Shown: positions 24,140-39,837 of the stretch, in pieces | How the letters are laid out: every line of letters begins with the position of its first letter | Position numbering within the stretch: the first letter of the stretch is position 1 | IMG/VR virus record: IMGVR_UViG_3300023108_000002 | Strand: one strand, 5' to 3' | DNA from: a virus | Taxonomy: Duplodnaviria > Caudoviricetes | Length of the DNA: 64,000 nt | Program-made: the position numbers and the translations under genes | The notes under the pieces: generated by a model | The model's input: the letters and a program-made list of their open reading frames with translations, nothing else | The model's database searches: none | Told to the model about the DNA's origin: nothing

Positions 24140-27100
24140 ATGGCTACCTCACTAGCAACCGAATTTTTGTCAGGTGGTTTTTCTATCCAAAGAAACGAAA
24201 TGGTGTCTATGCAGCAACAGAAACACCGCCAAAAGTTTCAGTTTTTGAATAGTTTTAACCAAACATATACAAGACTCGATAGACCAGCACAAGGAGAATT
24301 TGATAGAATTCGTCCTTATTCACTATCATCTGAAAAAAGACAATTTATTGGTGGGACTGTTACTACAGTAACTACTCCATTAACACAAACATATAGAAAT
24401 GGAAATCAAAAAGCACAACTAGGAGGTATCACTTTAAACTCACAGGGTGGTATTGTAACTCTCAATGTTCTTTCTGGTGGATATGGTTATGCTCCTAGTA
24501 CAACATTTAATGTGATCTTTAGAGGTGGCCAACCAGATGTTGGAACTTTCGAGCAATGTTACGCTACAGCACAATCAGACGGTGAGGGTAGAATTGTTTC
24601 TGTAGATATTCAAGTCACTGGATTGAACTATGATGAAACAACTGGTGCCGAAATTACAGCAGAAATAGATGAGTCTCCTACTATTGGACAGTTCTATGTT
24701 TCTTTCTTTGATGGGGTTGGTGCTATTACTGGAGTTGATATTGAAAGTGGAAACACAGGACATCGCCCTGGCGTTTATTTTGTAGAAGCTGGCACGGTTG
24801 CTGTTGGTGTCGGTGAGGATGGTGTAACTCCAAACGCTTCAGCAGGTTCTGGTGGTACTTTCCAAGTGCATGTTGATAATAGCGGCGCTGTTATTAAAGT
24901 AGTTCCTCTTACTTTTGGACAAGATTATCTTGTCGGAAATGAAATTACTATTCCAGCAACACGACTTGGTAATAATGGAACTCAGTTAACACCAGTTACC
25001 GATCTTGTTATTAGTGTCAGTTCTGTTGTTGACGCCGATCAGTTTGCCCTTGATTATGGAACAGTCACTTGGAGAAGTGAAACCTTTCAAGTTGGCGATA
25101 CTGTTGTTTTAGAATATTTTATCGATACTTCTAGAGATACAAGAGCTGTTGATGGTGTTCTTAGAACACTTGCTACTGATTTGTGTCTACATCCATATGG
25201 AAACTATTATAGTTCTGCATTTTCAACTGTCCAACAAAGAAATGCTGTTTTGACTTGGGATGCTGCTCCGACTTATGGTGTTACTACATTTACTGCCACT
25301 TTAACAGATGCTGTTTCTGGATTTGCTTTAACAGCAGATACAGGATTTCAACCAGGCGATGTTGGTAAAAGAATTATTGAACCAAATAAAACTGGCGCTG
25401 CAAAAATTATATCTGTAGATGCCGCTGGTGTTGCTACAGTAACTATGGATAATGTTTTGGAACCAGATACAAGAGAAGTAAATGCATTTGAAAGTTCCAC
25501 AAAAACCACATATTCGGTAGGAGAATGGAGACTTGCGATTGCAACATCTGAATTTGAATCGCAACCATATAATATCATTTATCCATATCTCAATTCAGAT
25601 GCAACTTCTCCAATTCCAATCGCAGTTGATGGTCAACAAAACCATAGAGATGTTAAAACATGTATCAATAGAATTGGTGATATGTTTATTGTAGAATCTG
25701 AAAAGGCAACAGACCTTCTTTCTTCGAAAGCAGATATTAACTCTGCTACTTCAGCTATACCATCTTCGGTTTCTTTGACACAACCAGTAAAAGATGCTAG
25801 AAAACCACAAAAATGGAGAATGAGATTCTTCTATGACCAAAGAGATGAATATCTTTATGTAAATATAGCAACTTCTCTTCAAATTAAGGACAATGGAGAT
25901 TTGACAAAAGGTCAAGGACGTGATGGTATTAAACAGGCAGTATTTAGACAGCCAGGAGAATTAAGTGAAATTTATTACAATTTCTCCAATGATACTAACA
26001 AAGCAAAATCTGGTTGGTTCCGTAGACAAGGTAAAACAACAGACGATATTGAAAGCGGATATCCACTTGCATATCGTTTAACTTGTACTGACCATGGCAC
26101 AGGACTGTTCTTGTTTGACCAAGCATCAGTAGATCAAGATGATGACTACGCATGGTTTGTTGTACAAAGACATGTTAACAATGTTTCTGGAAGAATCGAA
26201 TTTGAAGATGGAAAATCTCCAGTACATTGTTTATATTCACCATCTACAAGGCCAGAAGAAACATCAAACTATAATGTAGGTTTCTTTGCAGAAGTTGATG
26301 AAGATTTGGATGTTATCAGTGGACAAACTACAATAACATCAAAATCTCTTGAAGAACTTCAAATCTATGATGTGAATGGTAGATTGCTTAAACCAGGCCT
26401 ACCAGTAGATGTATCTATTGTTACAGATTCTAGTCCTGTGGAATTTAGAACTACTCCATATTCGGGCGGACCTAAATATCTCGCTCCAACTCTTGCTGCT
26501 GGCGGTGTTGCCGGTGTTGGTCCGTATGATGGAATTTCATTTGTCGATACCGCGACACTAGGAACAGATTCCACAACTGGATATACAATTATTAATGACC
26601 AAGTGCTTATGCCAGCAATTACTGGTGGTGCGACTGGAACATATGAAGATCTAGCTATTTCAAAAAGTGCTGGATTTACAGGAGCAACTATTACTGATAG
26701 AACTCAATTTTCTCTGAATTTTGCTAAGGGATATGGAACAACTTTTGTTCCTGTGGGACAATTTATCACTGCACTAGAACAAACGAATAGATTTACAGCT
26801 AATGTGGATGAAGATATTGCAAAAACCGCAGCAGACATAGGAGACTCCAGAACCGTTGTTGCAAAGGCTGGATTTACTATTGGTGGTTTGGATAACTTTA
26901 ACGCAGCAAGAAATCAGATGACGGGCCCTGCTAGACTCGGATTGACGCCATCTAGAATTAGACATAGAAGTAGATCTGGTGTTGATACATACTTAGAGGT
27001 TTCCGATTTCCAATTCCTTGATAAAACTGAAATTGCACCAAGGGTAAATCCAAACGGCAAGGCAAGAGAACTTCCAGTCGTTTCATCTGTAGCAATATTT

Positions 27101-28642
27101 AAACCTCTTTCTGGATTTGCAAAAAATCTAGTAAACCAACAAAGAGTGAGAATAATTCACGTTACTCCTGTAACAGCTACATATTCTGCTGGTTCAAATA
27201 TTCCAGTAATAGCACTACAGGCCGCTGGATCAATTACTGGACCGGTAACTGGATTGACAGATGATGTAAATGCAGAAATTGTTCCAATCCCTTACGCACA
27301 ATTGGGCGGAAGCACAGCAGGATTTATTACAGACTATTCTGGTTTATCAGAAGCAACTCCAACCAATAATGGATTTATTACTGGTGGCAGCGGTTTTACT
27401 GACATGTTTATTACTGCTCCAGGCTCTGGAACTTTAGATATGGCTGTGGGTGATATGATTACAACTAAACAAGAAGCTGTCAAAGTTGATGCTACATATC
27501 TTGGAGCGCCAGGAGCGCCAATTGAGGGTTATAGAGTTGATGCTATTGTTGATACTTTCTCAGAAGGTGATGGTTTCATTTATGAATATGCATGGGAAGG
27601 TGCTGGATTTGGTAACACATATACAAACTTCTATGGAAGATCTGGTACTTCATCCAACCCACTATTTGAAGTAAATAGATTGAAAATATTTGTTGATGGT
27701 GCAGAAGCAGATGCTGCTGTTTTCGGACAAAACTATACTATCAACTCAGCGGGAGAAGTAGAGTTTGGTACAACTAATAAGAGTTTGGAATACTTTGGTG
27801 TTGAGAAACCAATGTATGCGTATAACTTGACAAACGACACATGGACTTTCAATGAAGTAATTGAAAATGGAACAGTTGTAAAACTTTCTTATGAAAACTA
27901 TAATGATATCGAAGAAAGAGATACAGGTAAATCAACATACTTGATTAAAGTTCCAGAGGATAGAGATATTCCAAGCATTTGGAATGATATTCACAGAGTT
28001 GCCAAAGGTATCTACAGATTCTGTGTCAGAGAAGCCGATGTGTTCAAACCTTGGGATTATCATGTATCTGCTGTAATTCCACAAGTAGATAGCCCTGCAT
28101 GTATTAACCCTGTAGAACAGTTGTCAATTACACAAGACAAGACAGTTATCTTTAACTTCCCAACACCTCTTGCATCACAAAGATTTATCTATAGTGATGC
28201 TGAAATGGACTTGATTTGTGTCGCAGGCGCAGACAGTTCAACTCAAGGTGGTATTATCAAAACTGCTTCTACAAAGTATGACTTGGATGCTGCACAAATC
28301 TCTGCGGTTACTGATGGACATACTCCAGGCACTGAAAATATATCAAGCAATGGAGATAAAATGAATTTCCGTCAACCATATGATTGGCACAACACTCACC
28401 AAGGAGTTCACTCAGCTACATTGGCTACAAATGGTGGAGTTGCATCTTTTAGAGATGGAGCTGTGGCTGTTGATACCATTTCGAACTCAACACACAGAAC
28501 ATATGTTGGTATGATGAGTACAAAACCTTTTGGTAACGGCATGAGAATCTTTATCTTAACAAGAGGTGGGCCAGTTAGACCACAATATAGTGACTATACT
28601 CCAAGAGATATTAGAGCAGAAAACGAAAATACATTTACATAA
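24140..28642 (+). CDS. Unassigned virion structural protein, paralogue P3 (1500 aa)
   Basis: Same conserved core blocks; closest to P2 (GFSIQRN, DLC.HPY, LFLFDQASVDQDDDYAWFVVQRHV identical). Confidence 0.8.
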   Translation: MATSLATEFLSGGFSIQRNEMVSMQQQKHRQKFQFLNSFNQTYTRLDRPAQGEFDRIRPYSLSSEKRQFIGGTVTTVTTPLTQTYRNGNQKAQLGGITLNSQGGIVTLNVLSGGYGYAPSTTFNVIFRGGQPDVGTFEQCYATAQSDGEGRIVSVDIQVTGLNYDETTGAEITAEIDESPTIGQFYVSFFDGVGAITGVDIESGNTGHRPGVYFVEAGTVAVGVGEDGVTPNASAGSGGTFQVHVDNSGAVIKVVPLTFGQDYLVGNEITIPATRLGNNGTQLTPVTDLVISVSSVVDADQFALDYGTVTWRSETFQVGDTVVLEYFIDTSRDTRAVDGVLRTLATDLCLHPYGNYYSSAFSTVQQRNAVLTWDAAPTYGVTTFTATLTDAVSGFALTADTGFQPGDVGKRIIEPNKTGAAKIISVDAAGVATVTMDNVLEPDTREVNAFESSTKTTYSVGEWRLAIATSEFESQPYNIIYPYLNSDATSPIPIAVDGQQNHRDVKTCINRIGDMFIVESEKATDLLSSKADINSATSAIPSSVSLTQPVKDARKPQKWRMRFFYDQRDEYLYVNIATSLQIKDNGDLTKGQGRDGIKQAVFRQPGELSEIYYNFSNDTNKAKSGWFRRQGKTTDDIESGYPLAYRLTCTDHGTGLFLFDQASVDQDDDYAWFVVQRHVNNVSGRIEFEDGKSPVHCLYSPSTRPEETSNYNVGFFAEVDEDLDVISGQTTITSKSLEELQIYDVNGRLLKPGLPVDVSIVTDSSPVEFRTTPYSGGPKYLAPTLAAGGVAGVGPYDGISFVDTATLGTDSTTGYTIINDQVLMPAITGGATGTYEDLAISKSAGFTGATITDRTQFSLNFAKGYGTTFVPVGQFITALEQTNRFTANVDEDIAKTAADIGDSRTVVAKAGFTIGGLDNFNAARNQMTGPARLGLTPSRIRHRSRSGVDTYLEVSDFQFLDKTEIAPRVNPNGKARELPVVSSVAIFKPLSGFAKNLVNQQRVRIIHVTPVTATYSAGSNIPVIALQAAGSITGPVTGLTDDVNAEIVPIPYAQLGGSTAGFITDYSGLSEATPTNNGFITGGSGFTDMFITAPGSGTLDMAVGDMITTKQEAVKVDATYLGAPGAPIEGYRVDAIVDTFSEGDGFIYEYAWEGAGFGNTYTNFYGRSGTSSNPLFEVNRLKIFVDGAEADAAVFGQNYTINSAGEVEFGTTNKSLEYFGVEKPMYAYNLTNDTWTFNEVIENGTVVKLSYENYNDIEERDTGKSTYLIKVPEDRDIPSIWNDIHRVAKGIYRFCVREADVFKPWDYHVSAVIPQVDSPACINPVEQLSITQDKTVIFNFPTPLASQRFIYSDAEMDLICVAGADSSTQGGIIKTASTKYDLDAAQISAVTDGHTPGTENISSNGDKMNFRQPYDWHNTHQGVHSATLATNGGVASFRDGAVAVDTISNSTHRTYVGMMSTKPFGNGMRIFILTRGGPVRPQYSDYTPRDIRAENENTFT

Positions 28643-28663: not shown

Positions 28664-28671
28664 GATAAATA
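28664..28671 (+). promoter_or_regulatory. Probable late promoter variant GATAAATA overlapping the terminator
   Basis: NATAAATA box in the intergenic gap about 40 nt upstream of the ATG at 28713. Confidence 0.55.
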
Positions 28672-28699
28672 AGGGGAGGCACTTAGCTTCCCCTTTTTT
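28671..28699 (+). terminator. Rho-independent terminator after P3
   Basis: AAGGGGAGG-CACTTAG-CTTCCCCTT stem-loop followed by TTTT. Confidence 0.85.
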
Positions 28700-28712: not shown

Positions 28713-31700
28713 ATGTCAGTCGTAAATATATTTTTATTTAGAGATATAGTAAAAGTTAAGATTGGAATAGGTTCGCCTTCCAATCCTGGCACTCCTACGG
28801 ATGGTCAAGAGATCTCCGAGGGAAACATAACATATGTTTACAATGCGTCTACAACAAATTGGGATATTACAACAAAAACAAATCAAGTTTTTGTGTCAGG
28901 ATTATCTTCTGCTATAACTATAAATTTTTCAGCCGGTGATATTATAAAAAATGGTAATAGTGTCGGAACATCTACCACAGTAGATAATGGAGATACCGTT
29001 AGGCTTTCAGTTACAAGTCCTGTATTAAATACGGTGAACAATTATACGTTCACTGCTGATTCTACAACATTAGAATTTAATGTGGAATTAAATGATCCAG
29101 TAACCGCAAATTATGATGTAGAAAAAGCCGAAACAATTTCTAATAACGACGACTTAGAAAAAGAAGATGAAAATGTAAATTTAATTTCTGGTGCAACAGA
29201 AAATTTATTTCAGAATATTGCAAAACAGACTCAAACAACAGAGCGTGATGCTCTAATAGTAAAAGATACTATTGAAAAATATGTACAAGAAAGAGTTGGT
29301 AGTAATTTACTTGAGCCAGATTTTGCAGATATTGATATTATTACTGAAATTGCAAAGTTAGAAGGAATCAATCTTGAATTTATTGCTGACATAGAAACTA
29401 TTACTCTAAGAGATTTTATTTTAGCATATCTTCAAGATACAGAACTGAAAACTTTAGAATATACTCCTACAGAAGAAACAGTAGAAGAAAAATCTCAAGA
29501 ATCTATTGAAGAGGAAGAAACTTTACAAACTTCTGAAACCGAAAAATCAGAAGTTTTAGAAACAATTTCTACTACAGATGCTTCTTTGTTGGAAACATCT
29601 GATAGCGATTCTTTATTAGAAACTAATCTAATTGAAGATTCAGAAACCATTACTTCTTTAGAAACTGCAAGTGCGGAGATTACAGAGATTATATCTGCAA
29701 AAGATGCGGAGATTAATAATGTTACAGACACTATTGAGACAACACAGACATCTACATTTGAAGATATTGAAGAGATCTCTTCTCAGGAGACTTCTACATT
29801 AGAAGAAACGGAAACAATAACAACTTCTGAAACAGACAAGGCAGAAGAGACAGAGTTTGTTTCATTCACAGAAACTTCTACTTTAGAGGAAACTGAATCT
29901 ACTTCATTCACAGAAACTTCTACTCTAGAAGAAACCGAATCTACTTCAATCACAGAAACTTCTACTCTAGAAGAAACCGAATCTACTTCAATCACAGAAA
30001 CTTCTACTTTAGAAGAAGTAGAGGATGTTTCATTTACTAATATTGAAGCTGATGAAGTTCTTGAGCAGGCCAATTTACTAGAACAAATTAAAAACGAGCT
30101 TCAAGAACTCACAGAAACGAAACAATCTGAAATACTAAGTGAACTAGAAAATATTTTTCTGAATAATTTAGAAAATTTTTCTGAACAGATTACGGTAGAT
30201 TTTATATCTCAAAATTTAGCAGATATTTTAGAGAAAGAAAATTTATCAGTACCAGAATTCAATAGTTTTGAAGAATTACAACAGTTTCTTCAAAATGAAT
30301 TAGATTCTACTACCGAGATCACTTCTCTGCGTCAACTGAATTTAGGAGAAATTGATGAAATAATTTCCGTTTCTCTTCAGGAAACATTTACGGATAGCGT
30401 AGTCGATTCTTTATTGGACACGCCTATCAATGAAATAATAGATTCTGTTGAATTTGCAGATCCAAACATACTGAATGAAATTGAGACTTTTATAGAAACT
30501 AATTTCCCTCAAGCTTCTATAGAAGAAACCACAACATTTATAGAACCAAGAGAAAGTTCAAACGAAGCTGAAACAGTAGAAGCACAAGAAAAAATTACTG
30601 GTGCGACAGAACTTGTTTCTGGGGTTGATGACACTGATGATTCTTCAGTAAGTTCTGCTGTAAGCACAGATACTTCAGTAGAAGATTCTTCTTTAGAAAA
30701 TGCAGCAAATCCTGATCAAACCGAGGATTTTATTCCAGTATCGGGAGTTTCAGAAACGACAATTCCAGAAACTGAAACATCAGAATCTGAAGATTCTTAT
30801 GAATTCGAAAAATTTAGTGATGAAGAAATCAATGAAGTAAAAGAGATAGAAACTACATCAACAGATGAAATTAATGATACAAGAGAATTAGAATCTTCAA
30901 CACCAGACGAAAGTGAAAATTTAAGAGAATTGGATTTTGGTTCCGATTCGGATGTTGTTGAAACACAAGAAAAAATTACTGGTGCGGTAGAACTTGTTTC
31001 TGGTTCTGATGATACTGAAGATTCATCACAACCAACTGCTGTATCTACTGAAGGCACTGAAGATTCATCACAACCAACTGCTGTATCTACTGAAGGCACT
31101 GAAGATTCATCACAACCAACTGCTGTATCTACTGAAGGCACTGAAGATTTTATTCAGCCACCGTCTATTGGATCTGAAGAAACTGAAGAGGAATCACAAA
31201 AAACTGATATATCAACATCAGAGACTATTGATAGTGGTTTGATTTCTGTTGTTGGTTCTGATGGCATTGTTGAAGATTCTCAAAAAACGATAAACAATTC
31301 TGATGATGCTGTAGATACAGTACAAACTTCAGTAATTGCATCTGAAGACGAAGAAGAAGATTCTCAACAAATAACTGTCAACTCTAATGATGCTGTAGAT
31401 ACATCACAAATAATAGTTGTTGCATCTGAAGATGAAGAAGAAGATTCTCAACAAATAACTGTCAACTCTAATGATGCTGTAGATACAGTACAAACTTCAG
31501 TAATTGCATCTGAAGATGAAGAAGAAGATTCTCAACAAATAACTGTCAACTCTAATGATGCTGTAGATACAGTACAAACTTCAGTAATTGCATCTGAAGA
31601 TGAGGAAGAAGCGGCGCAGATAACAACCATATCTTCTAACTCTATAGACATTTCAGAGATAGAATCTATTATTCCGGCCGAAGATGTTTCAGATATTTCT

Positions 31701-34346
31701 TTAGATTCAAATTTAGAACAAGGAGAAGAAGTAGATGCTCAAATCCAGTCTGTAGCAAGCGCTGAGGTGCGCGAAGATGTTGCTGAAGCGGGAACTGCAT
31801 CAGAAGATATCTCTGTAGATAACGATGTGGCTGCAGCGTCTAACGCCGATACTGCTGTTGATAATAGTTTAGAAATTATACTTTCGACTGATGATAGTTT
31901 GGACGACCAACTCACATCTGGGACGGTTACGGATGAAATTTTAGATTCTTCATTAGAACTTTCTACAAATTTAGATGATACTACAGATCAAGCAATACTT
32001 CAAACACCACCAGTTGATGATACTACAGATCAAGCAATACTTCAAACACCACCAGTTGATGATACTACAGATCAAGCAATACTTCAAACACCACCAGTTG
32101 ATGAAAGCGAAGATCAAGCAATACTTCAAATACCACCAGTTGATGAAAGCGAAGATGTTCAACAACCCATTGTAGTTACAGCAGAAACAGATATTAATGA
32201 AGATGCAGATTCATTCATAGGTGCAGATATAGCAATAGATGATACAGATTCTTTAGTTACTGCAAAAGAAGAATCCGTAGACAGTACAGAATCTATAGAT
32301 GCTGGAGAAGATCCTTCAATTGATACTTCTGTTGTTTCTATTGTTTCTGACGAAACATCAGAAGATAATACAATTCCTGTTGTGACAGCTGTGGAAGATG
32401 AAGTCGAAGAACCTACAATTTCTACAAAATCTGAAAATGATAGTATTGATTCTGAAATTGTTTCTTCAGCTCAATCAGAAATTCCTAATGACGAAGCTGA
32501 TTTTATAGAGACTGGAGTTGACCCCAGTGAAGATCAGAGTTTGGAATTTACTCTTCAAACAGATTCTAATGTTGATTTTACTTCACCTCTTCCAGTTTCA
32601 GAAGATGATTTAATTCCAGACACTGAAAATATTATTTCGCAACAAGATACAAATATTGACCTTACAGATAGTGTGTCTCCTAATATTGACGAACCAACAG
32701 ATGAGACTGTTCCAGTATTAGCACAAGAAGATGTTAGAACTGATCTTACAGATAGTGTATCTCCTAATATTGATGAACCAACAGACGAGACTCTTCCAGT
32801 ATTAGCACAAGAAGATATTAGAACTGATGATAGTGATTTCGTGGAATCGCAAACCGATCTGCGGCCTGATGAGACAAGTCCAGTTACGGCTCAATTCGAT
32901 GAGACAATTGATAATGATTCAGCACCAGATTCGCAAACCGATCCACGGCCCGATGAGACAAGCCCTGTCACAACTCAATTCGATGAGACAATTGATAATG
33001 ATTCAGCACCAGATTCGCAAGTAGATGATCAGCCCGATGAGACAAGTCCTGTCACAACTCAATTCGATGAGACAATTGATAATGATTCAGCGCTAGATCC
33101 TCAAGTAGATGATCGGCCTGATGAGACAAGTCCAGTTACGGCTCAGTTTGATGAGACAATTGATAATGATTCAGCGCTAGATCCCCAAGTAGATGATCGG
33201 CCTGATGAGACAAGTCCAGTTACGGCTCAATTTGATGAAAGTTTAGATGATACTGACCCAACTATAGTTCAATCTGACCTCATAGAAGAAGATACAATAA
33301 ATCAAAATGGCGGCGAAAACCTTGAAATAGATGATACAGATATTTCTACTCTAAATGAAACTCCAGAAATTGATGATACAGATGCTGTTCCAACTGCTGA
33401 AAATTCTGTCGAAATAGAAGAAATTGTTTTAGATTCGAGTTCAGAGGTGCCGGTAGATGCGGATATTGATTTATCTGGAATCGAAGATACCGTAACAGAT
33501 CAGGACACTCCAAATCGTATAAGCGATGATGTAAGTTTGGATGACCCTCTAATATTGGAGCCATCAGTAGACGATACAACTGATGATGCTGTTGTATTTT
33601 CTAAAAATGACGATACTGTAGATGATGATGCAATAATATCAATTATTGAAACAGATCTTATTGATGATACTGAAATAAATTTAGGATTTACTGATGATAT
33701 TCTAACAGACCAAGACACTCCAACTATCGGGGTGGATGATGAATTAGGAGATGAGGATGTTGTATTTGTAACTTCGACAGACGATACGATAGATGATGCT
33801 GTTATTGTAGAAACGGTAGTAGATGATACGATAGATGATGCTGTTATTGTAGAAACGGCAGTAGACGATACAACTGATGATGCTGTTATTCTAGAAACAG
33901 CAGTAGATGATACAAATGATGAACAATTACAAGTAGGTGCAACAACTGATGATACGGCAGATCAAGAAACTCGGCCGAGACTTAGTGTTACTATAGAAAC
34001 AGATTCGCAAATAGTTCTTAGATCTGGTACAGATGAAACTGATACCGAAGCATTGGTTTCAGTAGTTCCAGATGAAGATCCAGTCCAAGCACCAAACATT
34101 CCTAAGCCTCCGGCTGAAGAACCTGTAGAAGAACCTCCTATTTCAAAGCCAGGCGAAGATACATTACCAGAATTAGCTCCACCGATTAGTGAAGGTTTGG
34201 ATGATTTTAATAGAGAAAAAGGAATAATTATAATGAGAACTGGAGAAGATAGGTTGTATGCGTTAACTCCTGTTTTTGATAGCGTAAAAAATAGAAATAT
34301 TGGTCCGTTTATTGATAGACGCGATTCAGATAGATATTTTGGATAA
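28713..34346 (+). CDS. Giant acidic 14-residue-repeat protein, probable virion appendage (ORF track starts at TTG 28698; ATG 28713 preferred)
   Basis: Uninterrupted ORF, very rich in D/E/T/S; N-terminal P.NP..PTDGQ...YVYN....W module shared with the fibre genes at 56609 and 63895; the TTG at 28698 lies in the terminator U-tract. Confidence 0.75.
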   Translation: MSVVNIFLFRDIVKVKIGIGSPSNPGTPTDGQEISEGNITYVYNASTTNWDITTKTNQVFVSGLSSAITINFSAGDIIKNGNSVGTSTTVDNGDTVRLSVTSPVLNTVNNYTFTADSTTLEFNVELNDPVTANYDVEKAETISNNDDLEKEDENVNLISGATENLFQNIAKQTQTTERDALIVKDTIEKYVQERVGSNLLEPDFADIDIITEIAKLEGINLEFIADIETITLRDFILAYLQDTELKTLEYTPTEETVEEKSQESIEEEETLQTSETEKSEVLETISTTDASLLETSDSDSLLETNLIEDSETITSLETASAEITEIISAKDAEINNVTDTIETTQTSTFEDIEEISSQETSTLEETETITTSETDKAEETEFVSFTETSTLEETESTSFTETSTLEETESTSITETSTLEETESTSITETSTLEEVEDVSFTNIEADEVLEQANLLEQIKNELQELTETKQSEILSELENIFLNNLENFSEQITVDFISQNLADILEKENLSVPEFNSFEELQQFLQNELDSTTEITSLRQLNLGEIDEIISVSLQETFTDSVVDSLLDTPINEIIDSVEFADPNILNEIETFIETNFPQASIEETTTFIEPRESSNEAETVEAQEKITGATELVSGVDDTDDSSVSSAVSTDTSVEDSSLENAANPDQTEDFIPVSGVSETTIPETETSESEDSYEFEKFSDEEINEVKEIETTSTDEINDTRELESSTPDESENLRELDFGSDSDVVETQEKITGAVELVSGSDDTEDSSQPTAVSTEGTEDSSQPTAVSTEGTEDSSQPTAVSTEGTEDFIQPPSIGSEETEEESQKTDISTSETIDSGLISVVGSDGIVEDSQKTINNSDDAVDTVQTSVIASEDEEEDSQQITVNSNDAVDTSQIIVVASEDEEEDSQQITVNSNDAVDTVQTSVIASEDEEEDSQQITVNSNDAVDTVQTSVIASEDEEEAAQITTISSNSIDISEIESIIPAEDVSDISLDSNLEQGEEVDAQIQSVASAEVREDVAEAGTASEDISVDNDVAAASNADTAVDNSLEIILSTDDSLDDQLTSGTVTDEILDSSLELSTNLDDTTDQAILQTPPVDDTTDQAILQTPPVDDTTDQAILQTPPVDESEDQAILQIPPVDESEDVQQPIVVTAETDINEDADSFIGADIAIDDTDSLVTAKEESVDSTESIDAGEDPSIDTSVVSIVSDETSEDNTIPVVTAVEDEVEEPTISTKSENDSIDSEIVSSAQSEIPNDEADFIETGVDPSEDQSLEFTLQTDSNVDFTSPLPVSEDDLIPDTENIISQQDTNIDLTDSVSPNIDEPTDETVPVLAQEDVRTDLTDSVSPNIDEPTDETLPVLAQEDIRTDDSDFVESQTDLRPDETSPVTAQFDETIDNDSAPDSQTDPRPDETSPVTTQFDETIDNDSAPDSQVDDQPDETSPVTTQFDETIDNDSALDPQVDDRPDETSPVTAQFDETIDNDSALDPQVDDRPDETSPVTAQFDESLDDTDPTIVQSDLIEEDTINQNGGENLEIDDTDISTLNETPEIDDTDAVPTAENSVEIEEIVLDSSSEVPVDADIDLSGIEDTVTDQDTPNRISDDVSLDDPLILEPSVDDTTDDAVVFSKNDDTVDDDAIISIIETDLIDDTEINLGFTDDILTDQDTPTIGVDDELGDEDVVFVTSTDDTIDDAVIVETVVDDTIDDAVIVETAVDDTTDDAVILETAVDDTNDEQLQVGATTDDTADQETRPRLSVTIETDSQIVLRSGTDETDTEALVSVVPDEDPVQAPNIPKPPAEEPVEEPPISKPGEDTLPELAPPISEGLDDFNREKGIIIMRTGEDRLYALTPVFDSVKNRNIGPFIDRRDSDRYFG
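29871..30038 (+). repeat. Coding tandem repeat, 4 x 42 nt (ETSTLEETESTS[F/I]T)
   Basis: GAAACTTCTACT(T/C)TAGA... recurs every 42 nt, in frame. Confidence 0.9.
31014..31139 (+). repeat. Coding tandem repeat, 3 x 42 nt identical (TEDSSQPTAVSTEG)
   Basis: ACTGAAGATTCATCACAACCAACTGCTGTATCTACTGAAGGC three times. Confidence 0.9.
31305..31610 (+). repeat. Coding tandem repeat, about 3.6 x 84 nt (28 aa)
   Basis: GATGCTGTAGATACA... at 31305, 31389, 31473 and 31557. Confidence 0.85.
31974..32156 (+). repeat. Coding tandem repeat, about 4.3 x 42 nt (DDTTDQAILQTPPV)
   Basis: Units start at 31974, 32016, 32058, 32100 and 32142. Confidence 0.9.
32868..33240 (+). repeat. Coding tandem repeat, about 4.4 x 84 nt (DETSPVT[A/T]QFDETIDNDSA...)
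   Basis: GATGAGACAAG units start at 32868, 32952, 33036, 33120 and 33204. Confidence 0.9.
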
Positions 34347-34352
34347 TTAATA

Positions 34353-37300
34353 ATGCCTCAGGTACAAATACGTGGCGGAACAAAAGTTCAAGCCAGAACA
34401 AGAAGGATAGATAATATAATTTTCGATTCTGTGGCCGAAGTTACGGTGCAGTATGTAAATTATTATTATGATGAGTCAAAAGAAAAAAATATTGCCCTTG
34501 AAAAGTTAAGAACCTCAATCACATTTGAAACTATCACTTCAAAGTTAGAATATAATCATTTAGAATTAGATTTTTTAGAAGGAACCACTAGTCCATATGT
34601 TCCAATTGGTACAGAAAGTATGGAAAAATTTGCAACCGTTTCTGCGCCCCCTATAGATTATGTGGCAATACATAATGAATTTTTGCCAGGAAAGTTTGTA
34701 AGTTCTAAAAATCATAGAGAAAGATTTTCTGGAGATGATTCTAGCAGATTTGTTGTGCTTGATGATAATTTTAGAAAAACTGCTACTATGCCATTACGGC
34801 ACGTACACACTTTAAATAATCCTAATGATTCTGGGCCGGGGGATGCGTTTCATTTTTCCATTTTATCTAGAAATATACTTACAGAAAATCCCAAGGTTAG
34901 AGTTAGTGTTTACAGAAGCACTTTGGAGTATGAAGATGCAATTGAAAATTTGGATGAATTTCAAAGAGGCTTGTCGTCTGTATTCGTTCAAAGCTTTGAT
35001 TATTCGATTGAGGGTGTTGGATGGAATAGATTTGTAATAAATTTAAGAACTTTAAACATACCTATTGGTAACTGCTTGTTGTGGTTTGTTATTGAAAGAT
35101 TGCCAATTATAATTGAAAATCCATTTGATATTCCTTCTGGAGAATATAATGAATCATTTAATGAAACTAATATACAAATAGAAACTATCGTTGATGATAA
35201 TTCTGAAACTAAAATTTATAGATTTTTAAGTTCTATAGATGATTGGATTGATAATGACACATTAACAACTAGGCCCTTTTCTATTCAAATAAATGGAGTC
35301 GATTTAACTTTAGATGTTGATTTTTCATATCAATTATTTAAACATAGAGAAACTATACGAAAATTAGAAATAACATTTTCTGACGATGTTCTTCCATTAA
35401 CTCAGGAAGGCGAACTTTCATCTTTCTCAGGAGTTCTTACAGTTGAGCCTAGAACAACAGGTGTTAATTCTTATGCTATTTTATCGAATTGGTATAAATT
35501 TTCACACGGCGCAATTTTTACCGATGGCAGCGCGATATATCCATCTATACCTTCTGAAATTGATTCGTGGCAAGTTAACGCGGATGACGCGATTTCATAT
35601 ACCAGAAACAGTCGGTCTTATATTGGATTTGTTTCTCCTGACCCAATCGAGTCTTATGAACTAGAAACTCAAGTTTCTTCGACAGGAAGAGATGATGATG
35701 CTATAGGTGTTGTGATTGGTTTTGCGAAAGATGAGGATTATGAATATACATTAAGTGCTGTTAGAGTTCATGGTGGTATGTTTGGTGGAGTAACTTGGAT
35801 GTTGGCTACAAACATAGCACAAACAATATCATTTAATGGTAGAACTATATCTGATAAAATTTCTAGTCATAGATGGTATCTTAGAACACCAGCCGGAGAA
35901 ATAGATTATGAAACAATCCCTAATATTGGAAGAAATTGGAGCAATACTCCAACAGGAGCAAAAATAAAAATTAGAAAAGAGGGAAATATTATAAAGGCAT
36001 GGACAAGCCAGATGAATTCTGATGTAATTGACCCTGCAAGTTTAATTGAAATTGATCTTAATGAATATGAAGATACTAAAAAATTCATTAACTCTCGATT
36101 TGGATTCTCTACTTATTCACAATCAAATTCAAAATTTACTAATATATCTTTTTCTCCTATCATTGGAGAAACGAACTTAGAAGATATAAAGGCCGGAGAA
36201 TTATTTGTTGGGGGATTTGCTACTGAGATTGCTTCCACTGAAGTCAAAAATTTAAATCCAAAGGCAAATCATGAATTTATAGATTCAATTACAGCCGAAA
36301 GATTTATCATAGATGGGCCAAAAGTTGCGAAAGAAAAATTTAACTTTATAACATTTGAACTAACTTCAGCAATAGACACTGATTCTGAAAATTTCATAGA
36401 TTTAATTAAACCAAGTCTATATGCTGGAACTATACTTGATTATACTAATATTAGTATGCTTTTAAAAACTAAAAAACTTACATTTACACACAATCCTTTT
36501 ACTGGATTTAGAATTGATTATCTCACCGAAAACATTGATTCTCAATTAGTGTCAGGCGAAAGTTTAGTTGATATATTAAATAGATATATTTCTCCTACGA
36601 ACGACTTATTTGCTGCTCAAAAATTAGTAGAAATCATCGAAGGAAAAGACGCAGCGAAAAGATATGTTGAGTTTATATCTTCTGAAATGAGTCAAAATAT
36701 TATACAAAATATTTCAGGAGAATTTACATCAACAGGAGTTTCTATAGAAAATATTTCTAGTGAATTTGCTATATCTCAAAATATAAGTAAAAAAATAATA
36801 GAAGTAGGATATGCTGGAATAAAATATGAATTCTCATACGATCCTATCGATAGAGTGCAAAATTTAGATTCTATTACTAAAGAATTAAATCTTTCAGAAT
36901 TTATTTCTATTTCTGATATCGCTTCTATTCAAAATTATGGAAGAGAATTAAATAGAGCAGTAGATATTTTAAAAGAACAAGATCTTGTTATGGATATACA
37001 ATCTGGATTGTATTATTTCGAACCCCAAGATTATTTAAATGATATTACAAAATCTATGTATTTTGGTAAACCAAAAGATAGCATTATTCCTATCAATTAT
37101 GGTTTCCAAAAATATACAGATTCTACAGAAAAATACAAAAAATATATTGAATTATCGAAAGACATTCTATTTGAGTTTGAGCCCTTTGCAGAAAACCCAA
37201 TAGATATTTTATTCAATTCTGAACTCTTTATTGAAAAACCAAAAGATATAGAATATGATACTCTTTGGATGAATGCTCCATCCGATATAGTTTTAAACAC

Positions 37301-39545
37301 AGAACTATTTTATGAAAATCTAAAAACAATAAATTTATCAAATTTGGAATTTAATGAAATTCTTAAAACGGTTGATATTTCACAAAAAGATTTTTATGAA
37401 GAATTAAAACTTGGAAATATTACACAGAAAGATTTTTATGAAATTGTAAAATCTATTTTTGAAAAAGAAAAAGTTTTCTATGAAATTCCAAGAAACATAA
37501 TTCTTGGAGACAAAACATGGAACGAAAAAATAAAAATTATAGAAATTAATTATCCAAAAACTTCTTTTTTTGAACGAGCAAAAGATATTAGATTTGACGC
37601 CAAACCATTCTATACAGAGACTTTAAGTAAAACATACATTAATAAAATATTTTTCGTAGATATGGATATGTGGAATAAAACTCTAAATTTCTCAGGATTT
37701 GAATTAGAAACTCAAGATGTATCATATTTTATTGAACAATATTTTATGCAAACGAATGCGGTTACTCCAACAATTGGGAAAACGATATTTGGCAAAAAAA
37801 TGTTGGAAGAAATATTCAGGCCGAACTTTAGAATTATAGAGAAAGTATTAGAATTTTTCTTCGATTCTTTTGTTGGTGTTTCGTCTAATTTATTCGATGT
37901 GAATAAATTTCAACCAACTTTTTATGACAAAATTACTTCTTTTCATCCCAGAAATGGGGGTTCAAACGCATATGGACATGAGGTATTAGAAAATGGTAGA
38001 AGTTTAATAGCTAGATCAAAAAAACCTGTTTTAAGTGAATATGTGGTTGAAAATAATTTTGAAGCTGCTGGACGATCAGGCAGACACGAAACAAATGTTT
38101 ATAGTGAAACTCAAGTTATAACAGACATTAATTCAAATTTTTTATTTGAATTTTCTACAGTCGATTGGAATTTAGAAACTAATAGTAAAATGAATGAGAT
38201 TTGGGCTTTTAATAATGAAAATAATAAGTTTAACTTTTTATATGATATAGAAGCTATGGAAGGTAGAATACCAGAATGTTTAACTCTTACTTCGACAGGA
38301 AGATTGACAGGAAAGCTTTCGGAAACTGATAAGTTTTTAAGAAAGTATGCTTTTGAGCCTTGGGTAAAAACTCAGGGATTTACTAATTCGAATGGAGAAT
38401 TTGTATCACATTTTGATAGTTTGGATTATGATTATACTGATTTTGAAGTAGTAGATCCTAGAGAATTTAGTGTGCGATTGGTGGGAAGAAATATTACAAC
38501 TGGTACTATTGACATTATTGCTGTAAATGATGGTGATGAGTTGGTGCCAGGTGAGGTTGTTAGACAAGGTCTTTCTAATTTTGTCGTAGGACCAAAAGTA
38601 ACAACTTTCAATAAAGATGTTAATTTAGGAAATGGAATAGTAAATAAAACAATTTTGCGTTATGAATTAGAAAGATTAGAAGGCGACATCAACATAACCA
38701 GAATTGAAAGGGTTCTTACCGATGTCTTTGTAACATCCTCTAGCATATTAATTAATAACATCGCTGAATTAAATGAACAGATTCTTTTTTCGGAAAATTT
38801 ACAAACCACTGAGGTTTTGTTACAAAGAAGGAATAAATTACAATCTTTATTGGATGCGGTTGGGCCGGATGAAGGAATTTTTGCCACCGAAACGGCATCA
38901 GAAACTGTTGAAGTAGAGACAATTGAACAAGAAGATGGAACACAGTTTTATGTAGATGATTTTCTTACAGATAATTCTGGTGCAGTTATAAAACAAGTAA
39001 CTCTCATTTTCAGAATATATAATAACTATTCATTTGATAGAGATTTATTCATTCATAAATCTCCACAGATAGATGATTCTCTATTTGCTTCTAGAACTGA
39101 GTGGTTAGAGGCAAACAGAGAAAATAATAATTTCAGATATAGTTCTTTGATAAATAATAGAGCAATAGATAGTGAAGTTATTGATGTGGTTAGAAATTAT
39201 TATAACTCAAAAATATCAGAAGTGGAATATAATGCTAGGAAAGCTGAACTAACAGAATTAAGAGAATACACAAATCCAGAACAATACAATAAATATATGA
39301 ATTTCCTAGATTCTTTATCTAGAGATGGGACTAATTATGACCTTTCAAAACTTTTAGATGTTGATTATTTTACAAAAGAGTTTCCAATACTACCTTCTAA
39401 ATTTGAATACTTGGAAAATATTGCAAATGAAAACGGAACATTTACATTGAATTGTGAATATGAAGTGGATGAAAAAACATTCTATGAAGCCACAGATGAT
39501 ATTAGAATAATAAGAGGATACCCAGTATATGCCAGCTGTAACTAG
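34353..39545 (+). CDS. Large virion-associated protein (1730 aa) with a thrombospondin-C/L-lectin-like domain, an aromatic 14-mer repeat tract and a putative Ig-like (He_PIG-type) motif
   Basis: YIGFVSP...SSTGRDDDAIGVVIGF...YTLSAVR resembles TSP-C-like lectin folds; GRIPECLTLTSTGRLTG resembles the He_PIG motif; overlaps PAAR by 17 nt. Confidence 0.6.
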   Translation: MPQVQIRGGTKVQARTRRIDNIIFDSVAEVTVQYVNYYYDESKEKNIALEKLRTSITFETITSKLEYNHLELDFLEGTTSPYVPIGTESMEKFATVSAPPIDYVAIHNEFLPGKFVSSKNHRERFSGDDSSRFVVLDDNFRKTATMPLRHVHTLNNPNDSGPGDAFHFSILSRNILTENPKVRVSVYRSTLEYEDAIENLDEFQRGLSSVFVQSFDYSIEGVGWNRFVINLRTLNIPIGNCLLWFVIERLPIIIENPFDIPSGEYNESFNETNIQIETIVDDNSETKIYRFLSSIDDWIDNDTLTTRPFSIQINGVDLTLDVDFSYQLFKHRETIRKLEITFSDDVLPLTQEGELSSFSGVLTVEPRTTGVNSYAILSNWYKFSHGAIFTDGSAIYPSIPSEIDSWQVNADDAISYTRNSRSYIGFVSPDPIESYELETQVSSTGRDDDAIGVVIGFAKDEDYEYTLSAVRVHGGMFGGVTWMLATNIAQTISFNGRTISDKISSHRWYLRTPAGEIDYETIPNIGRNWSNTPTGAKIKIRKEGNIIKAWTSQMNSDVIDPASLIEIDLNEYEDTKKFINSRFGFSTYSQSNSKFTNISFSPIIGETNLEDIKAGELFVGGFATEIASTEVKNLNPKANHEFIDSITAERFIIDGPKVAKEKFNFITFELTSAIDTDSENFIDLIKPSLYAGTILDYTNISMLLKTKKLTFTHNPFTGFRIDYLTENIDSQLVSGESLVDILNRYISPTNDLFAAQKLVEIIEGKDAAKRYVEFISSEMSQNIIQNISGEFTSTGVSIENISSEFAISQNISKKIIEVGYAGIKYEFSYDPIDRVQNLDSITKELNLSEFISISDIASIQNYGRELNRAVDILKEQDLVMDIQSGLYYFEPQDYLNDITKSMYFGKPKDSIIPINYGFQKYTDSTEKYKKYIELSKDILFEFEPFAENPIDILFNSELFIEKPKDIEYDTLWMNAPSDIVLNTELFYENLKTINLSNLEFNEILKTVDISQKDFYEELKLGNITQKDFYEIVKSIFEKEKVFYEIPRNIILGDKTWNEKIKIIEINYPKTSFFERAKDIRFDAKPFYTETLSKTYINKIFFVDMDMWNKTLNFSGFELETQDVSYFIEQYFMQTNAVTPTIGKTIFGKKMLEEIFRPNFRIIEKVLEFFFDSFVGVSSNLFDVNKFQPTFYDKITSFHPRNGGSNAYGHEVLENGRSLIARSKKPVLSEYVVENNFEAAGRSGRHETNVYSETQVITDINSNFLFEFSTVDWNLETNSKMNEIWAFNNENNKFNFLYDIEAMEGRIPECLTLTSTGRLTGKLSETDKFLRKYAFEPWVKTQGFTNSNGEFVSHFDSLDYDYTDFEVVDPREFSVRLVGRNITTGTIDIIAVNDGDELVPGEVVRQGLSNFVVGPKVTTFNKDVNLGNGIVNKTILRYELERLEGDINITRIERVLTDVFVTSSSILINNIAELNEQILFSENLQTTEVLLQRRNKLQSLLDAVGPDEGIFATETASETVEVETIEQEDGTQFYVDDFLTDNSGAVIKQVTLIFRIYNNYSFDRDLFIHKSPQIDDSLFASRTEWLEANRENNNFRYSSLINNRAIDSEVIDVVRNYYNSKISEVEYNARKAELTELREYTNPEQYNKYMNFLDSLSRDGTNYDLSKLLDVDYFTKEFPILPSKFEYLENIANENGTFTLNCEYEVDEKTFYEATDDIRIIRGYPVYASCN

Positions 39546-39837
39546 ATTCGGAGACTCCTGCACAGGACACGGTTGTTTCCCCCCAAGAAAAAATATAGCC
39601 GCAAGCGAAAATGTGTTTGTAAATAGTATTGGTGCTCATAGACAGGGAGATGGGTGGGCGGTTCATTGTTGTCCTCCGCCAACTTGTCATGGTTCTGTGC
39701 TTGCGATGGGTTCTCCTTCAGTATATGTAAATGGAAAACAATTAGGAAGAATTGGAGATCCAGTTGCGTGTGGGTCTACTGTTGCAAGTGGATCTGGAAA
39801 TGTTTTTGCCGGTGGTTCAACTATATCTGTTTTGTGA
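39529..39837 (+). CDS. gp5.4: PAAR spike-tip protein (T4 gp5.4-like)
   Basis: MPAVTR.GD..TGH..FPP...VFVN...R.GD....H...H......GS..VYVNGK...RIGD...CG......GS.NVFAGG, with the His/His/His/Cys metal-site residues present. Confidence 0.95.
   Translation: MPAVTRFGDSCTGHGCFPPRKNIAASENVFVNSIGAHRQGDGWAVHCCPPPTCHGSVLAMGSPSVYVNGKQLGRIGDPVACGSTVASGSGNVFAGGSTISVL

What the first reader, a model, noticed from the sequence alone, without database searches (positions are those of the whole stretch)
29517..34080. Giant acidic protein written in a near-strict 14-residue register (about 85 units)
Seen: beyond the exact 42- and 84-nt tandem repeats, the divergent sequence between them keeps the same phase (e.g. 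VDNDVAAASNADTA / VDNSLEIILSTDDS / LDDQLTSGTVTDEI / IDTSVVSIVSDETS / NDEADFIETGVDPS), usually with Asp at position 2 and acidic residues at the end. There are about 12 units at 29517-30038 and about 73 at 31014-34080, with only a few +/-1 slips. Lys/Arg are rare and Cys/Trp absent in the tracts. All recent duplications are multiples of 42 nt. Inference: register conservation argues against a disordered spacer and for a beta-solenoid or cation (Ca2+)-stabilised rod of adjustable length, forming a strongly polyanionic virion appendage (metal or mineral binding, spacer, or charge shield). I do not recognise the family.
Basis: partly seen in the sequence, partly recalled or inferred. Interest (0 to 1): 0.8.

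Follow-up and report, generated by a model that had tools for sequence, protein, structure and literature searches.

The report
Acidic phage protein in 14-residue layers
An uncultured estuarine T4-like phage encodes a 1,877-residue, extremely acidic protein. More than 1,000 of its residues are written in strict 14-residue units with fixed aspartates. Relatives differ only by whole units, which points to a length-adjustable structural rod from an uncatalogued family, not a loose spacer.

Summary
The gene (window 28713-34346, +) has a 12-unit tract and a 75.6-unit tract with a 14-residue period. A cyclic profile model finds no frame slip across the 75.6 units. The period survives removal of all recent copies (Fourier power 33 against at most 8 in 1,000 shuffles).

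Relatives from marine metagenomes (772 to 2,325 aa, 15 to 108 units) keep the same period with quite different unit sequences. Close variants differ only by 14 or 28 residues inside the tracts. Outside the tracts, 35 indels among relatives are 1-16 residues long, apart from one of 28. The two Asp columns change 3-5 times less than the others, and tract dN/dS is 0.2-0.44. So the unit length is under selection.

The fold is not established. AlphaFold2 gives only a weak model (pLDDT 48) with one strand per unit and a solenoid-like shape. No Pfam, PHROG or PDB family matches. The gene is co-transcribed with a 1,730-aa fibre-like protein and a PAAR spike-tip protein, and this order is conserved in a distant relative.

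Best reading: a polyanionic, probably cation-neutralised beta-roll or solenoid rod of adjustable length in a baseplate or spike appendage. The scan has noted analogous, unrelated acidic 20- and 8-residue repeat shafts in other phages, but not this family.

The parts
28664..28697 (+). Late-promoter-like GATAAATA (28664-28671), followed by a G+C-rich hairpin with a T run (28672-28697). The hairpin is the terminator of the upstream gene.
   Evidence: Read directly from the sequence. Exact TATAAATA late promoters precede neighbouring genes.
28713..34346 (+). Gene for the 1,877-aa hyperacidic protein. The ATG start matches the orthologues. An in-frame TTG at 28698 would lie against the hairpin and is unlikely to be the start.
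28770..29117 (+). N-terminal beta-sandwich domain (P0001 residues about 25-140). This is the most conserved part of the family.
   Evidence: AlphaFold2 with a 16-row alignment gives pLDDT 72-88. Foldseek finds weak matches to domains of large phage structural proteins and no specific PDB match.
29532..30035 (+). Tract 1: 12 units of 14 residues, rich in Glu, Thr and Ser, ending in 42/84-nt exact repeats.
30036..30767 (+). Central conserved, helix-like segment (residues about 447-690), 42% identical to the orthologue.
   Evidence: BLASTP and MAFFT comparisons. Fold not predicted.
30984..34160 (+). Tract 2: 75.6 units of 14 residues in one unbroken register. Consensus: [DE]-[DE]-[ST]-h-D-[DE]-[ST]-h-x-h-h-h-[SGNQ]-x, where h is a hydrophobic residue. 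Net charge about -283 over residues 771-1792.
34074..34199 (+). Pro-rich linker (residues about 1793-1834). It overlaps the end of the periodic segment.
   Evidence: Read from the translation. Aligned with relatives.
34200..34343 (+). Conserved C-terminal module of about 48 residues (KG-I-I-x-x-R ... Y-x-L ... GPF-x-x-R). It is present in all four lineages.
   Evidence: Alignment A2 shows invariant K, G, I, R, Y, L and GPF..R.
34353..39545 (+). Downstream partner gene (1,730 aa, P0004). It starts 6 nt after the stop with no promoter match in between. It carries its own 14-residue aromatic/Lys repeat at about 37170-37610.
   Evidence: PHROG tail-fibre hits. Homologue in the same position in L003. 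Lag-14 identity 0.295, reached by 0 of 5,000 shuffles.
39529..39837 (+). PAAR spike-tip gene (102 aa). Its start overlaps the end of the 1,730-aa gene.
   Evidence: Pfam PAAR_motif, E 3.8e-19. Same arrangement in L003-L005.

Best explanation
The tracts are a structural repeat, not a neutral disordered spacer.

Proposed structure (inferred): each 14-residue unit supplies one short beta-strand (the hydrophobic and Ser/Thr positions 8-12) and one acidic turn carrying two nearly fixed carboxylates (positions 1 and 5, plus Ser/Thr at 3 and 7). The units stack into a long, narrow beta-roll or beta-solenoid. This could be one unit per layer, as in the 14-residue rolls of trimeric adhesin heads, or two units per coil. 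The stacked Asp ladders would need Mg2+ or Ca2+ to be neutralised, and both are plentiful in estuarine water. Because each unit is a complete layer, the rod can lengthen or shorten only by whole units. At 4.8 A per layer it would be roughly 18-36 nm in this phage and up to about 50 nm in relatives.

Proposed role (inferred): the rod lies between an N-terminal beta-sandwich domain and a small conserved C-terminal module. It is made together with a fibre-like giant protein and the PAAR spike tip, so it is probably part of a baseplate or central-spike appendage. Its length and surface are swapped by recombination.

Shown here: the period, its conservation, the quantised indels, the site-specific constraint, the gene coupling and the allele exchange.

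Inferred: the fold, the cation dependence, the oligomeric state and the location in the virion.
For: 1. Long-range coherence. There is one unbroken register over 75.6 units here and 107.9 units in the orthologue. Independent relatives not used for training show 0-1 slips (L012 18+55 units, L017 23+34.5, L003 15).
2. The period survives removal of recent copies. MAFFT, free to choose any offset, places 34 of 34 non-overlapping five-unit pieces of the two orthologues at offsets of 0 mod 14.
3. The period is conserved while the unit sequence is not. Units such as DDTIDDAVIVETAV, DDTDSVGALTDDRT, GEDESTTLITGGET, NEADSEVPLDDPIK and TDDTPDNPQEFNTA occur in different lineages.
4. Indels between close alleles are quantised. 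In four close pairs all 10 indels are 14 or 28 aa. In the window versus L008 the sizes are 28, 14, 14, 14 and 18+10, with a single 13-aa indel outside the tract. As a within-gene control, the non-tract parts show 35 indels of 1-16 aa and one of 28.
5. Constraint is site-specific. Columns 1 and 5 differ in 1-3% of units against 8% overall (p 0.004), and in 21-22% against 54% (p 2e-8). Tract dN/dS is 0.21-0.44.
6. The hydrophobic indicator has period-2 and period-7 harmonics, and many units contain Pro, so the tract is beta-like and not a coiled coil.
7. AlphaFold2 on 10 units places one strand per unit. The nearest solved shapes are parallel beta-helices, including Ca2+-dependent ones. This is weak: pLDDT 48 and Z at most 7.7.
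8. A solved precedent exists for a 14-residue layer, with 4.8 A rise, dozens of layers, a hydrophilic core and homologues that differ by whole layers (PMC9543794).
9. Context. The gene lies in the T4-like baseplate and fibre block. Its stop is 6 nt from the next start. PAAR overlaps the end of that next gene. The same order occurs in distant relatives.
10. Tract 2 is exchanged as a module: dS is 0.06 up to residue 650 and 1.12 in tract 2 between the window and L008.
Against: - The composition lies clearly on the 'natively unfolded' side of the charge-hydropathy plot (H 0.434 against a boundary of 0.513; net charge -283).
- AlphaFold2 confidence is low (mean pLDDT 48, pTM 0.37). Structure predictors also tend to draw solenoids for any repeat.
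- There is no conserved Gly or Asn at a turn position, unlike every solved tight beta-roll.
- No sequence or profile match to any solved structure or family was found.
- Nothing here shows that the protein is in the virion, forms an oligomer or binds cations.
- Selection for a 14-residue spacing could also come from a periodic binding partner rather than from a self-contained fold.
Confidence: 0.5

Rival explanations
1. The tract is an intrinsically disordered polyanionic brush or spacer. It would act as an entropic or electrostatic shield, or as a flexible tether. On this view the 14-residue period is a by-product of growth by 42/84-nt slippage or unequal recombination. The fixed Asp positions would reflect only a need for evenly spaced charge.
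For: Disorder-type composition and very high net charge. Low-confidence structure predictions. Fast turnover and copy-number change of units. No family or structure match.
Against: - Units are too diverged (about 18% identity at lag 14 after de-duplication) for recent duplication to explain a register that is unbroken over 75-108 units in several lineages.
- Short indels of 1-16 aa are common elsewhere in the same protein but absent from the tracts.
- A 14-aa copy-number change also occurs in a region of the orthologues' N-terminal part where I saw no 14-residue repeat by eye (periodicity not measured there).
- Two columns are 3-5 times more constrained than their neighbours, and dN/dS is 0.2-0.44.
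Confidence: 0.25
2. The tract is an extended chain that is ordered only when it lies along another periodic structure. The 14-residue unit would then match the partner's spacing. Candidate partners are the 14-residue aromatic/Lys repeat of the co-transcribed 1,730-aa protein, other fibre proteins, or the tail.
For: The adjacent, co-transcribed protein has its own significant 14-residue repeat of about 10 units, and the pair is conserved in synteny. Fourteen residues in an extended chain span about 45 A, close to the roughly 40 A ring spacing of T4-type tails. That last figure comes from my own knowledge and was not tested.
Against: The partner's tract has about 10 units against 75-108 here. 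Unit number varies between near-identical phages by one or two units, and by seven-fold across the family. This is hard to reconcile with a fixed scaffold. 108 units at 40 A would need a 430-nm partner.
Confidence: 0.12
3. The protein is a cargo of the PAAR/central-spike module and is ejected into the host ahead of the DNA. An unfolded polyanion could slide through the tail tube, and it might act as a nucleic-acid mimic or decoy.
For: Conserved coupling with PAAR. DNA-like negative charge and lack of a predicted stable fold.
Against: There are no capsid-targeting or known ejection-protein features. The protein has an N-terminal Ig-like sandwich of the type seen in phage fibre and decoration proteins. 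Strict 14-residue quantisation is not required for a decoy. Allele swapping of the tract looks like that of surface-exposed host-range parts.
Confidence: 0.06

Closest known systems
Left-handed parallel beta-roll (YadA-like head) of trimeric autotransporter adhesins, for example Burkholderia BpaC (PMC9543794)
   Same: Both have a strict 14-residue unit, with dozens of consecutive layers (42 in BpaC). The core can be largely hydrophilic. Homologues differ by whole 14-residue layers. Tandem DNA repeats have been proposed as a way to tune length.
   Different: The defining conserved Gly (G@8) and the NSVAIG-type motif are absent, and there is no Pfam YadA_head match. The tract here is hyperacidic (27% Asp/Glu) with fixed Asp columns. 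It sits in a phage structural protein with no membrane anchor. Trimer formation is not shown.
Ca2+-dependent beta-solenoids and rolls: RTX nonapeptide repeats, and region IV of the Marinomonas primoryensis ice-binding adhesin (19-residue coils, PDB 3p4g)
   Same: These are acidic repeats with a fixed Asp in the turn. They are unfolded without Ca2+ and form a rod with it. Register is strict and copy number is variable. The weak AlphaFold2 model aligns to 3p4g (Z 4.8, 21% identity over 82 residues) and to RTX blocks (Z 4.3-4.9).
   Different: The period is 14, not 9/18 or 19. There is no GGxGxD or xGTGND motif and no Pfam HemolysinCabind match. Cation binding is untested.
Other acidic periodic shafts noted by this scan in uncultured phages: a 20-residue E-x5-D repeat (e1-3011293) and an octapeptide hyperacidic 3,914-aa fibre of a marine T4-like phage (e1-5388321)
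   Same: These are giant, very acidic phage structural proteins built from diverged short repeats with fixed acidic positions. They lie in fibre gene clusters, have no catalogued family, and were inferred to be beta-type rods.
   Different: The period and motifs differ, and there is no sequence relationship. Those notes are AI readings that I did not check.
Triple beta-spiral shaft of adenovirus and reovirus fibres (about 15-residue repeats). This comparison is from my own knowledge.
   Same: A short repeat with an alternating hydrophobic strand followed by a turn, which builds a long trimeric viral fibre shaft.
   Different: The period there is 15 and variable, with Gly or Pro at the turn, and the repeat is not acidic. 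No similarity was detected by any search here.

Membership tests
YadA-like head / left-handed parallel beta-roll (Pfam YadA_head, Hep_Hag) | 14-residue periodicity of consecutive layers | tested here: met
   The family criterion is described in PMC9543794.
YadA-like head / left-handed parallel beta-roll (Pfam YadA_head, Hep_Hag) | Conserved Gly at the turn (G@8) in nearly every layer | tested here: not met
   The column profile shows Gly at 14% or less in every column of the window's units and 10% or less in the orthologue.
YadA-like head / left-handed parallel beta-roll (Pfam YadA_head, Hep_Hag) | Profile match to the family model | tested here: not met
   No Pfam family at E <= 0.01 on the whole protein, or at E <= 1 on residues 1500-1800. 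No PDB sequence match with the repeat profile.
YadA-like head / left-handed parallel beta-roll (Pfam YadA_head, Hep_Hag) | Obligate homotrimer | not testable with these tools
   Oligomeric state needs experiment. See Tried and rejected for the one prediction that was run.
RTX / HemolysinCabind beta-roll | GGxGxDxUx nonapeptide repeats (18 residues per turn) | tested here: not met
   The period is 14 with no power at 9 or 18 and no Gly-rich motif. No Pfam match.
EF-hand-like DxDxDG Ca2+ loops | Oxygen ligands at positions 1, 3 and 5, Gly at 6, hydrophobic at 8, Glu or Asp at 12 | tested here: not met
   Positions 1 (D/E), 3 (S/T), 5 (D) and 8 (I/L/V) fit. Position 6 is D/E/S, not Gly, and position 12 is never acidic. 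The motif definition comes from my own knowledge.
Canonical coiled coil (heptads, 14 = 2 x 7) | Hydrophobic a/d positions with period 3.5 and no helix breakers | tested here: not met
   The hydrophobic indicator peaks at periods 2, 7 and 14, not 3.5. Pro occurs in many units, at 18% in column 9.
The new family itself (N-terminal sandwich + acidic 14-mer tracts + GPF..R C-terminal module) | Shared N-terminal domain, central segment, C-terminal module and position before the fibre-like gene and PAAR | tested here: met

The most novel reading that the evidence does not exclude
The protein may define a new class of virion rod. It would be a hyperacidic, glycine-free beta-roll built from 14-residue layers that is held together by stacked Asp-cation ladders. 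It would stay unfolded at the low free Ca2+ of the host cytoplasm and stiffen only in sea or estuarine water. Mounted on the PAAR and central-spike module, it would give the phage a salinity- or cation-gated appendage whose length is tuned one layer at a time and whose surface is swapped by recombination.
Probability: 0.15. Interest if true: 0.85.

Novelty: new variant of a known kind. Interest (0 to 1): 0.66.

Why it matters
Giant genes of unknown function take up a large share of the structural region of uncultured marine T4-like phages. Here evolutionary evidence alone shows that more than 1,000 residues of 'disorder-like' polyanion are held to a strict 14-residue layer length. The unit number ranges from 15 to 108, and whole tracts are exchanged between phages.

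If the tract folds, it would be the longest and most acidic short-period beta-roll known. It would also be a natural example of a rod whose length is set digitally. That would be relevant to phage host recognition in saline waters and to the design of cation-switchable protein rods. If it does not fold, it is an unusual case of a disordered region with a quantised length, which would itself need explaining.

Tried and rejected
- Complex prediction. Complex prediction with three copies of residues 1639-1882 (alignment A2) returned 'no answer' (score 0.00; the partner's own fold was below pLDDT 50). This is neither for nor against a trimer.
- Phage collection. Megablast of 10 kb and tblastn of residues 1-280 against 50,697 phage records found nothing.
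- Protein searches. The search for homologous proteins with residues 1-280 (near lengths) and with the repeat profile (longer lengths) found nothing. The tool warns that this is weak evidence.
- IMG/VR. Scans with the C-terminal part found only the already known contig.
- Metagenome scan. The first attempt failed because the alignment was too diverse. It worked with a tighter alignment.
- ESM Atlas. It gave no usable lead for the N-domain (scores <= 0.82) or for the tract.
- Foldseek against PDB. The N-domain model gave only generic sandwiches.
- PDB sequence searches. The repeat profile and the C-terminal profile had no hits.
- Redundancy mask. My first mask (6/14 at any lag) removed nearly everything and was discarded.
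- MAFFT on overlapping repeat windows. It staggered them, so only non-overlapping windows were used.
- Reads. Logan contigs break at every tandem array, so they cannot count units. They show one 126-nt (3 x 42) go-back joint in tract 1 and a 39-nt insertion outside the tracts.
- 310-aa ORF at 39875-40807. I tested it as the PAAR gene and rejected it. The real PAAR is the 102-aa ORF at 39529-39837.
- Tape-measure or sheath role. I rejected this because earlier notes place those genes elsewhere in the genome (not checked by me) and because the tract contains Pro and is not helical.
- Whole genome. None is held for this window.
- Literature. Searches for a described 14-residue acidic phage repeat found nothing relevant.
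Full report
**What is there**

The finding lies in one long ORF on the + strand, 28698/28713-34346. Orthologues begin at the ATG at 28713. A terminator-like hairpin occupies 28672-28697. The product is therefore 1,877 aa. It contains 26.6% Asp+Glu, 23.5% Ser+Thr, 3.2% Lys+Arg, no Cys and a single Trp, and its net charge is -444. All but one of the tandem arrays found by Tandem Repeats Finder have periods of 42 or 84 nt; the exception is a weak 21-nt row overlapping the tract 1 array.

**Is the 14-residue register real outside the exact repeats?**

Yes.
- After masking the tandem arrays, residue identity at lags 14, 28, 42 and 56 is 0.17-0.19 against about 0.095 at other lags.
- The Asp/Glu indicator of residues 773-1795 has a Fourier power of 82.8 at exactly 14.0, with harmonics at 7, 3.5 and 2.
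- When every later copy that is at least 8/14 identical to an earlier stretch is removed, the power is still 33.1, against a maximum of 8.0 in 1,000 shuffles. With a 7/14 cut-off it is 15.2 against 6.9.
- A global peak at exactly 14.0 requires phase coherence over the whole tract. The sliding phase stays at 2.4 +/- 0.8 residues from residue 751 to about 1800.
- Written in rows of 14, column 1 is Asp/Glu in 84% and column 5 in 90% of non-redundant units. Column 7 is rich in Ser/Thr, columns 8, 10 and 12 are hydrophobic, and column 13 is small or polar.
- A cyclic profile HMM with one-residue insert and delete moves finds a single periodic segment of 75.6 units (window 30984-34160) with no slip. 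Shuffled sequence scores zero.
- Tract 1 (residues 279-446, 12 units) is also periodic ahead of its exact repeats. Its lag-14 identity is 0.273, reached by 0 of 5,000 shuffles. Its global charge-phase signal is not significant on its own.

**Relatives**

No cultured phage has the gene. IMG/VR and metagenome scans gave about 20 marine or estuarine loci. An exhaustive protein search added fragments and a distant complete homologue of 772 aa. A fourth lineage is a gene broken by frameshifts (L006).

All share the same plan: an N-terminal domain, a first acidic tract, a conserved central segment, a second acidic tract, a Pro-rich linker and a C-terminal module of about 48 residues with invariant K, G, I, R, Y, L and GPF..R.

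Complete proteins have 772, 1,339, 1,367, 1,780, 1,794, 2,311 and 2,325 aa.

Every one of them has the 14-residue period, although the unit sequences are unrelated at first sight. In the 2,325-aa orthologue, column 1 of a fixed frame is Asp/Glu in 96 of 104 rows. The HMM gives 107.9 units without a slip. In relatives not used to train the model it finds 18+55, 23+34.5 (one slip) and 15 units. MAFFT, free to choose any offset, aligned 34 of 34 non-overlapping five-unit pieces of the two orthologues at offsets of 0 mod 14.

**Selection or mutational habit?**

Four lines of evidence point to selection on unit length.

1. Close alleles differ inside the repeat regions only by 14 or 28 residues. 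The sizes are 28, 14, 28, 28 (L009/L010); 14, 28, 14, 28 (L010/L011); 14 (L012/L015); and 28 (L017/L018). For the window versus L008 they are 28, 14, 14, 14 and an ambiguous 18+10. One 13-residue indel lies outside the tract. One of the variable units (QVVQDAQKTTNISD, present in 1, 3 or 4 copies) lies in the N-terminal part, where I saw no 14-residue repeat by eye.
2. As a control within the same gene, the non-tract parts of four diverged relatives show 35 internal indels of 1-16 residues and one of 28. So short indels do arise and are tolerated, but not in the tracts.
3. Amino-acid differences between alleles are unevenly spread over the 14 columns. Columns 1 and 5 differ in 3/104 and 1/103 units against 8% overall (p 0.004), and in 22% and 21% against 54% (p 2e-8).
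4. dN/dS in the tracts is 0.21-0.44, against 0.07-0.18 in the end domains. This is relaxed but clearly purifying.

The window and L008 are nearly identical up to residue 650 (dS about 0.06) but saturated in tract 2 (dS 1.12, 46% identity). So tract 2 is exchanged by recombination as a cassette.

**What fold?**

This part is not settled.
- The charge-hydropathy measure puts the tract on the unfolded side without counter-ions.
- AlphaFold2 on ten units, given a 20-row alignment of in-register pieces from four lineages, returned a weak model (mean pLDDT 48, pTM 0.37) with one 8-10-residue strand per unit.
- Searched against 48,161 solved chains, that model lies nearest to parallel beta-helices and solenoids. 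These include SufBD, UreD, the curli CsgA fibril, CAP, RsaA, RTX blocks and the Ca2+-dependent antifreeze 3p4g, with best Z 7.7. The tool's own note says such values may reflect only a common arrangement, and predictors favour solenoids for repeats. I count this as a hint only.
- Many units contain Pro, and the hydrophobic signal has periods 2 and 7 rather than 3.5. This rules out a coiled coil.
- No Pfam, PHROG or PDB profile matches.
- A 14-residue layer is nevertheless a proven architecture. The left-handed parallel beta-roll of trimeric autotransporter heads has 14 residues per layer and a 4.8 A rise. BpaC has up to 42 layers with a hydrophilic core, and a homologue lacks exactly ten layers (PMC9543794). 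The present tract fails that family's sequence criteria, having no conserved Gly, so it is an analogue at most.

**Context**

The window is the baseplate and fibre block of a distant T4-like myophage. It has a gp8 homologue, tail-fibre PHROGs on several giant ORFs and TATAAATA late promoters before neighbouring genes.

The acidic gene has only a one-mismatch promoter-like site. It ends 6 nt before the start of a 1,730-aa protein with tail-fibre PHROG hits. The end of that gene is overlapped by a 102-aa PAAR gene (Pfam E 3.8e-19). The order acidic protein, large protein, PAAR recurs in the distant relative L003-L005.

The N-terminal domain is a beta-sandwich (pLDDT 72-88). It weakly resembles domains of other large phage structural proteins.

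The 1,730-aa neighbour has its own 14-residue aromatic/Lys repeat of about ten units.

The phage occurs in salt-marsh, estuary and seawater metagenomes.

**Verdict**

The inference that the register is functional is well supported by comparative evidence. The specific fold, cation dependence, oligomeric state and virion location remain inferences.

I put about 0.5 on a folded, cation-neutralised beta-roll or solenoid rod of adjustable length in a baseplate or spike appendage. I put 0.25 on a disordered polyanion with quantised length, 0.12 on a chain ordered only along a periodic partner, and 0.06 on an ejected polyanionic cargo.

The family is uncatalogued. The idea of a short-period, length-tunable beta-rod is known, so I class the finding as a new variant of a known kind.

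The scan has recorded analogous acidic repeat shafts with other periods in other phages. It has not recorded this family on other DNA.

Noticed in passing
window 37170-37610 (P0004 residues about 940-1085): The co-transcribed 1,730-aa protein has about ten 14-residue units of a different kind (aromatic, Lys and Glu, for example x-x-K-D-F-Y-E-x-x-K-x-x-x-I). Lag-14 identity is 0.295, reached by 0 of 5,000 shuffles.
   Followed up: partly
window 39529-39837: A 102-aa PAAR-motif gene (Pfam E 3.8e-19) whose start overlaps the last codons of the 1,730-aa gene. In the relative L003 the PAAR protein is 347 aa, with a weak CHAP hit.
   Followed up: yes
window about 30660-31000, compared with L008: There is a recombination breakpoint. 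The window and L008 have dS about 0.06 up to residue 650 and dS 1.12 in tract 2, so the second tract is a swapped cassette. A 39-nt insertion at 30677-30682 marks the L008-type allele in marine and estuary runs X12 and X17.
   Followed up: partly
L001, L010 and L011 compared with L002/L009, residues about 160-200 of the orthologues: The 14-residue unit QVVQDAQKTTNISD is present in 1, 3 or 4 copies. It lies in the N-terminal part outside the acidic tracts. So the 14-residue quantum is not confined to the acidic arrays.
   Followed up: partly
window 17706-19754, 19817-24082, 24140-28642 and 40867-44814: Four large paralogues share a C-terminal region that hits PHROG 12249, which is annotated 'tail sheath'. 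Earlier notes place the real sheath gene elsewhere in this genome, so the PHROG label is probably misleading.
   Followed up: no
L006 9717-13184: In this ENA contig the family member is split into three ORFs by frameshifts. The minus-strand ORF at 10845-11285 is the mirror of a 14-residue array. This is probably assembly error rather than a pseudogene.
   Followed up: no
window 28664-28697: A one-mismatch late-promoter-like site (GATAAATA) abuts a strong terminator hairpin just upstream of the gene. A transcript started there would begin inside the hairpin.
   Followed up: no
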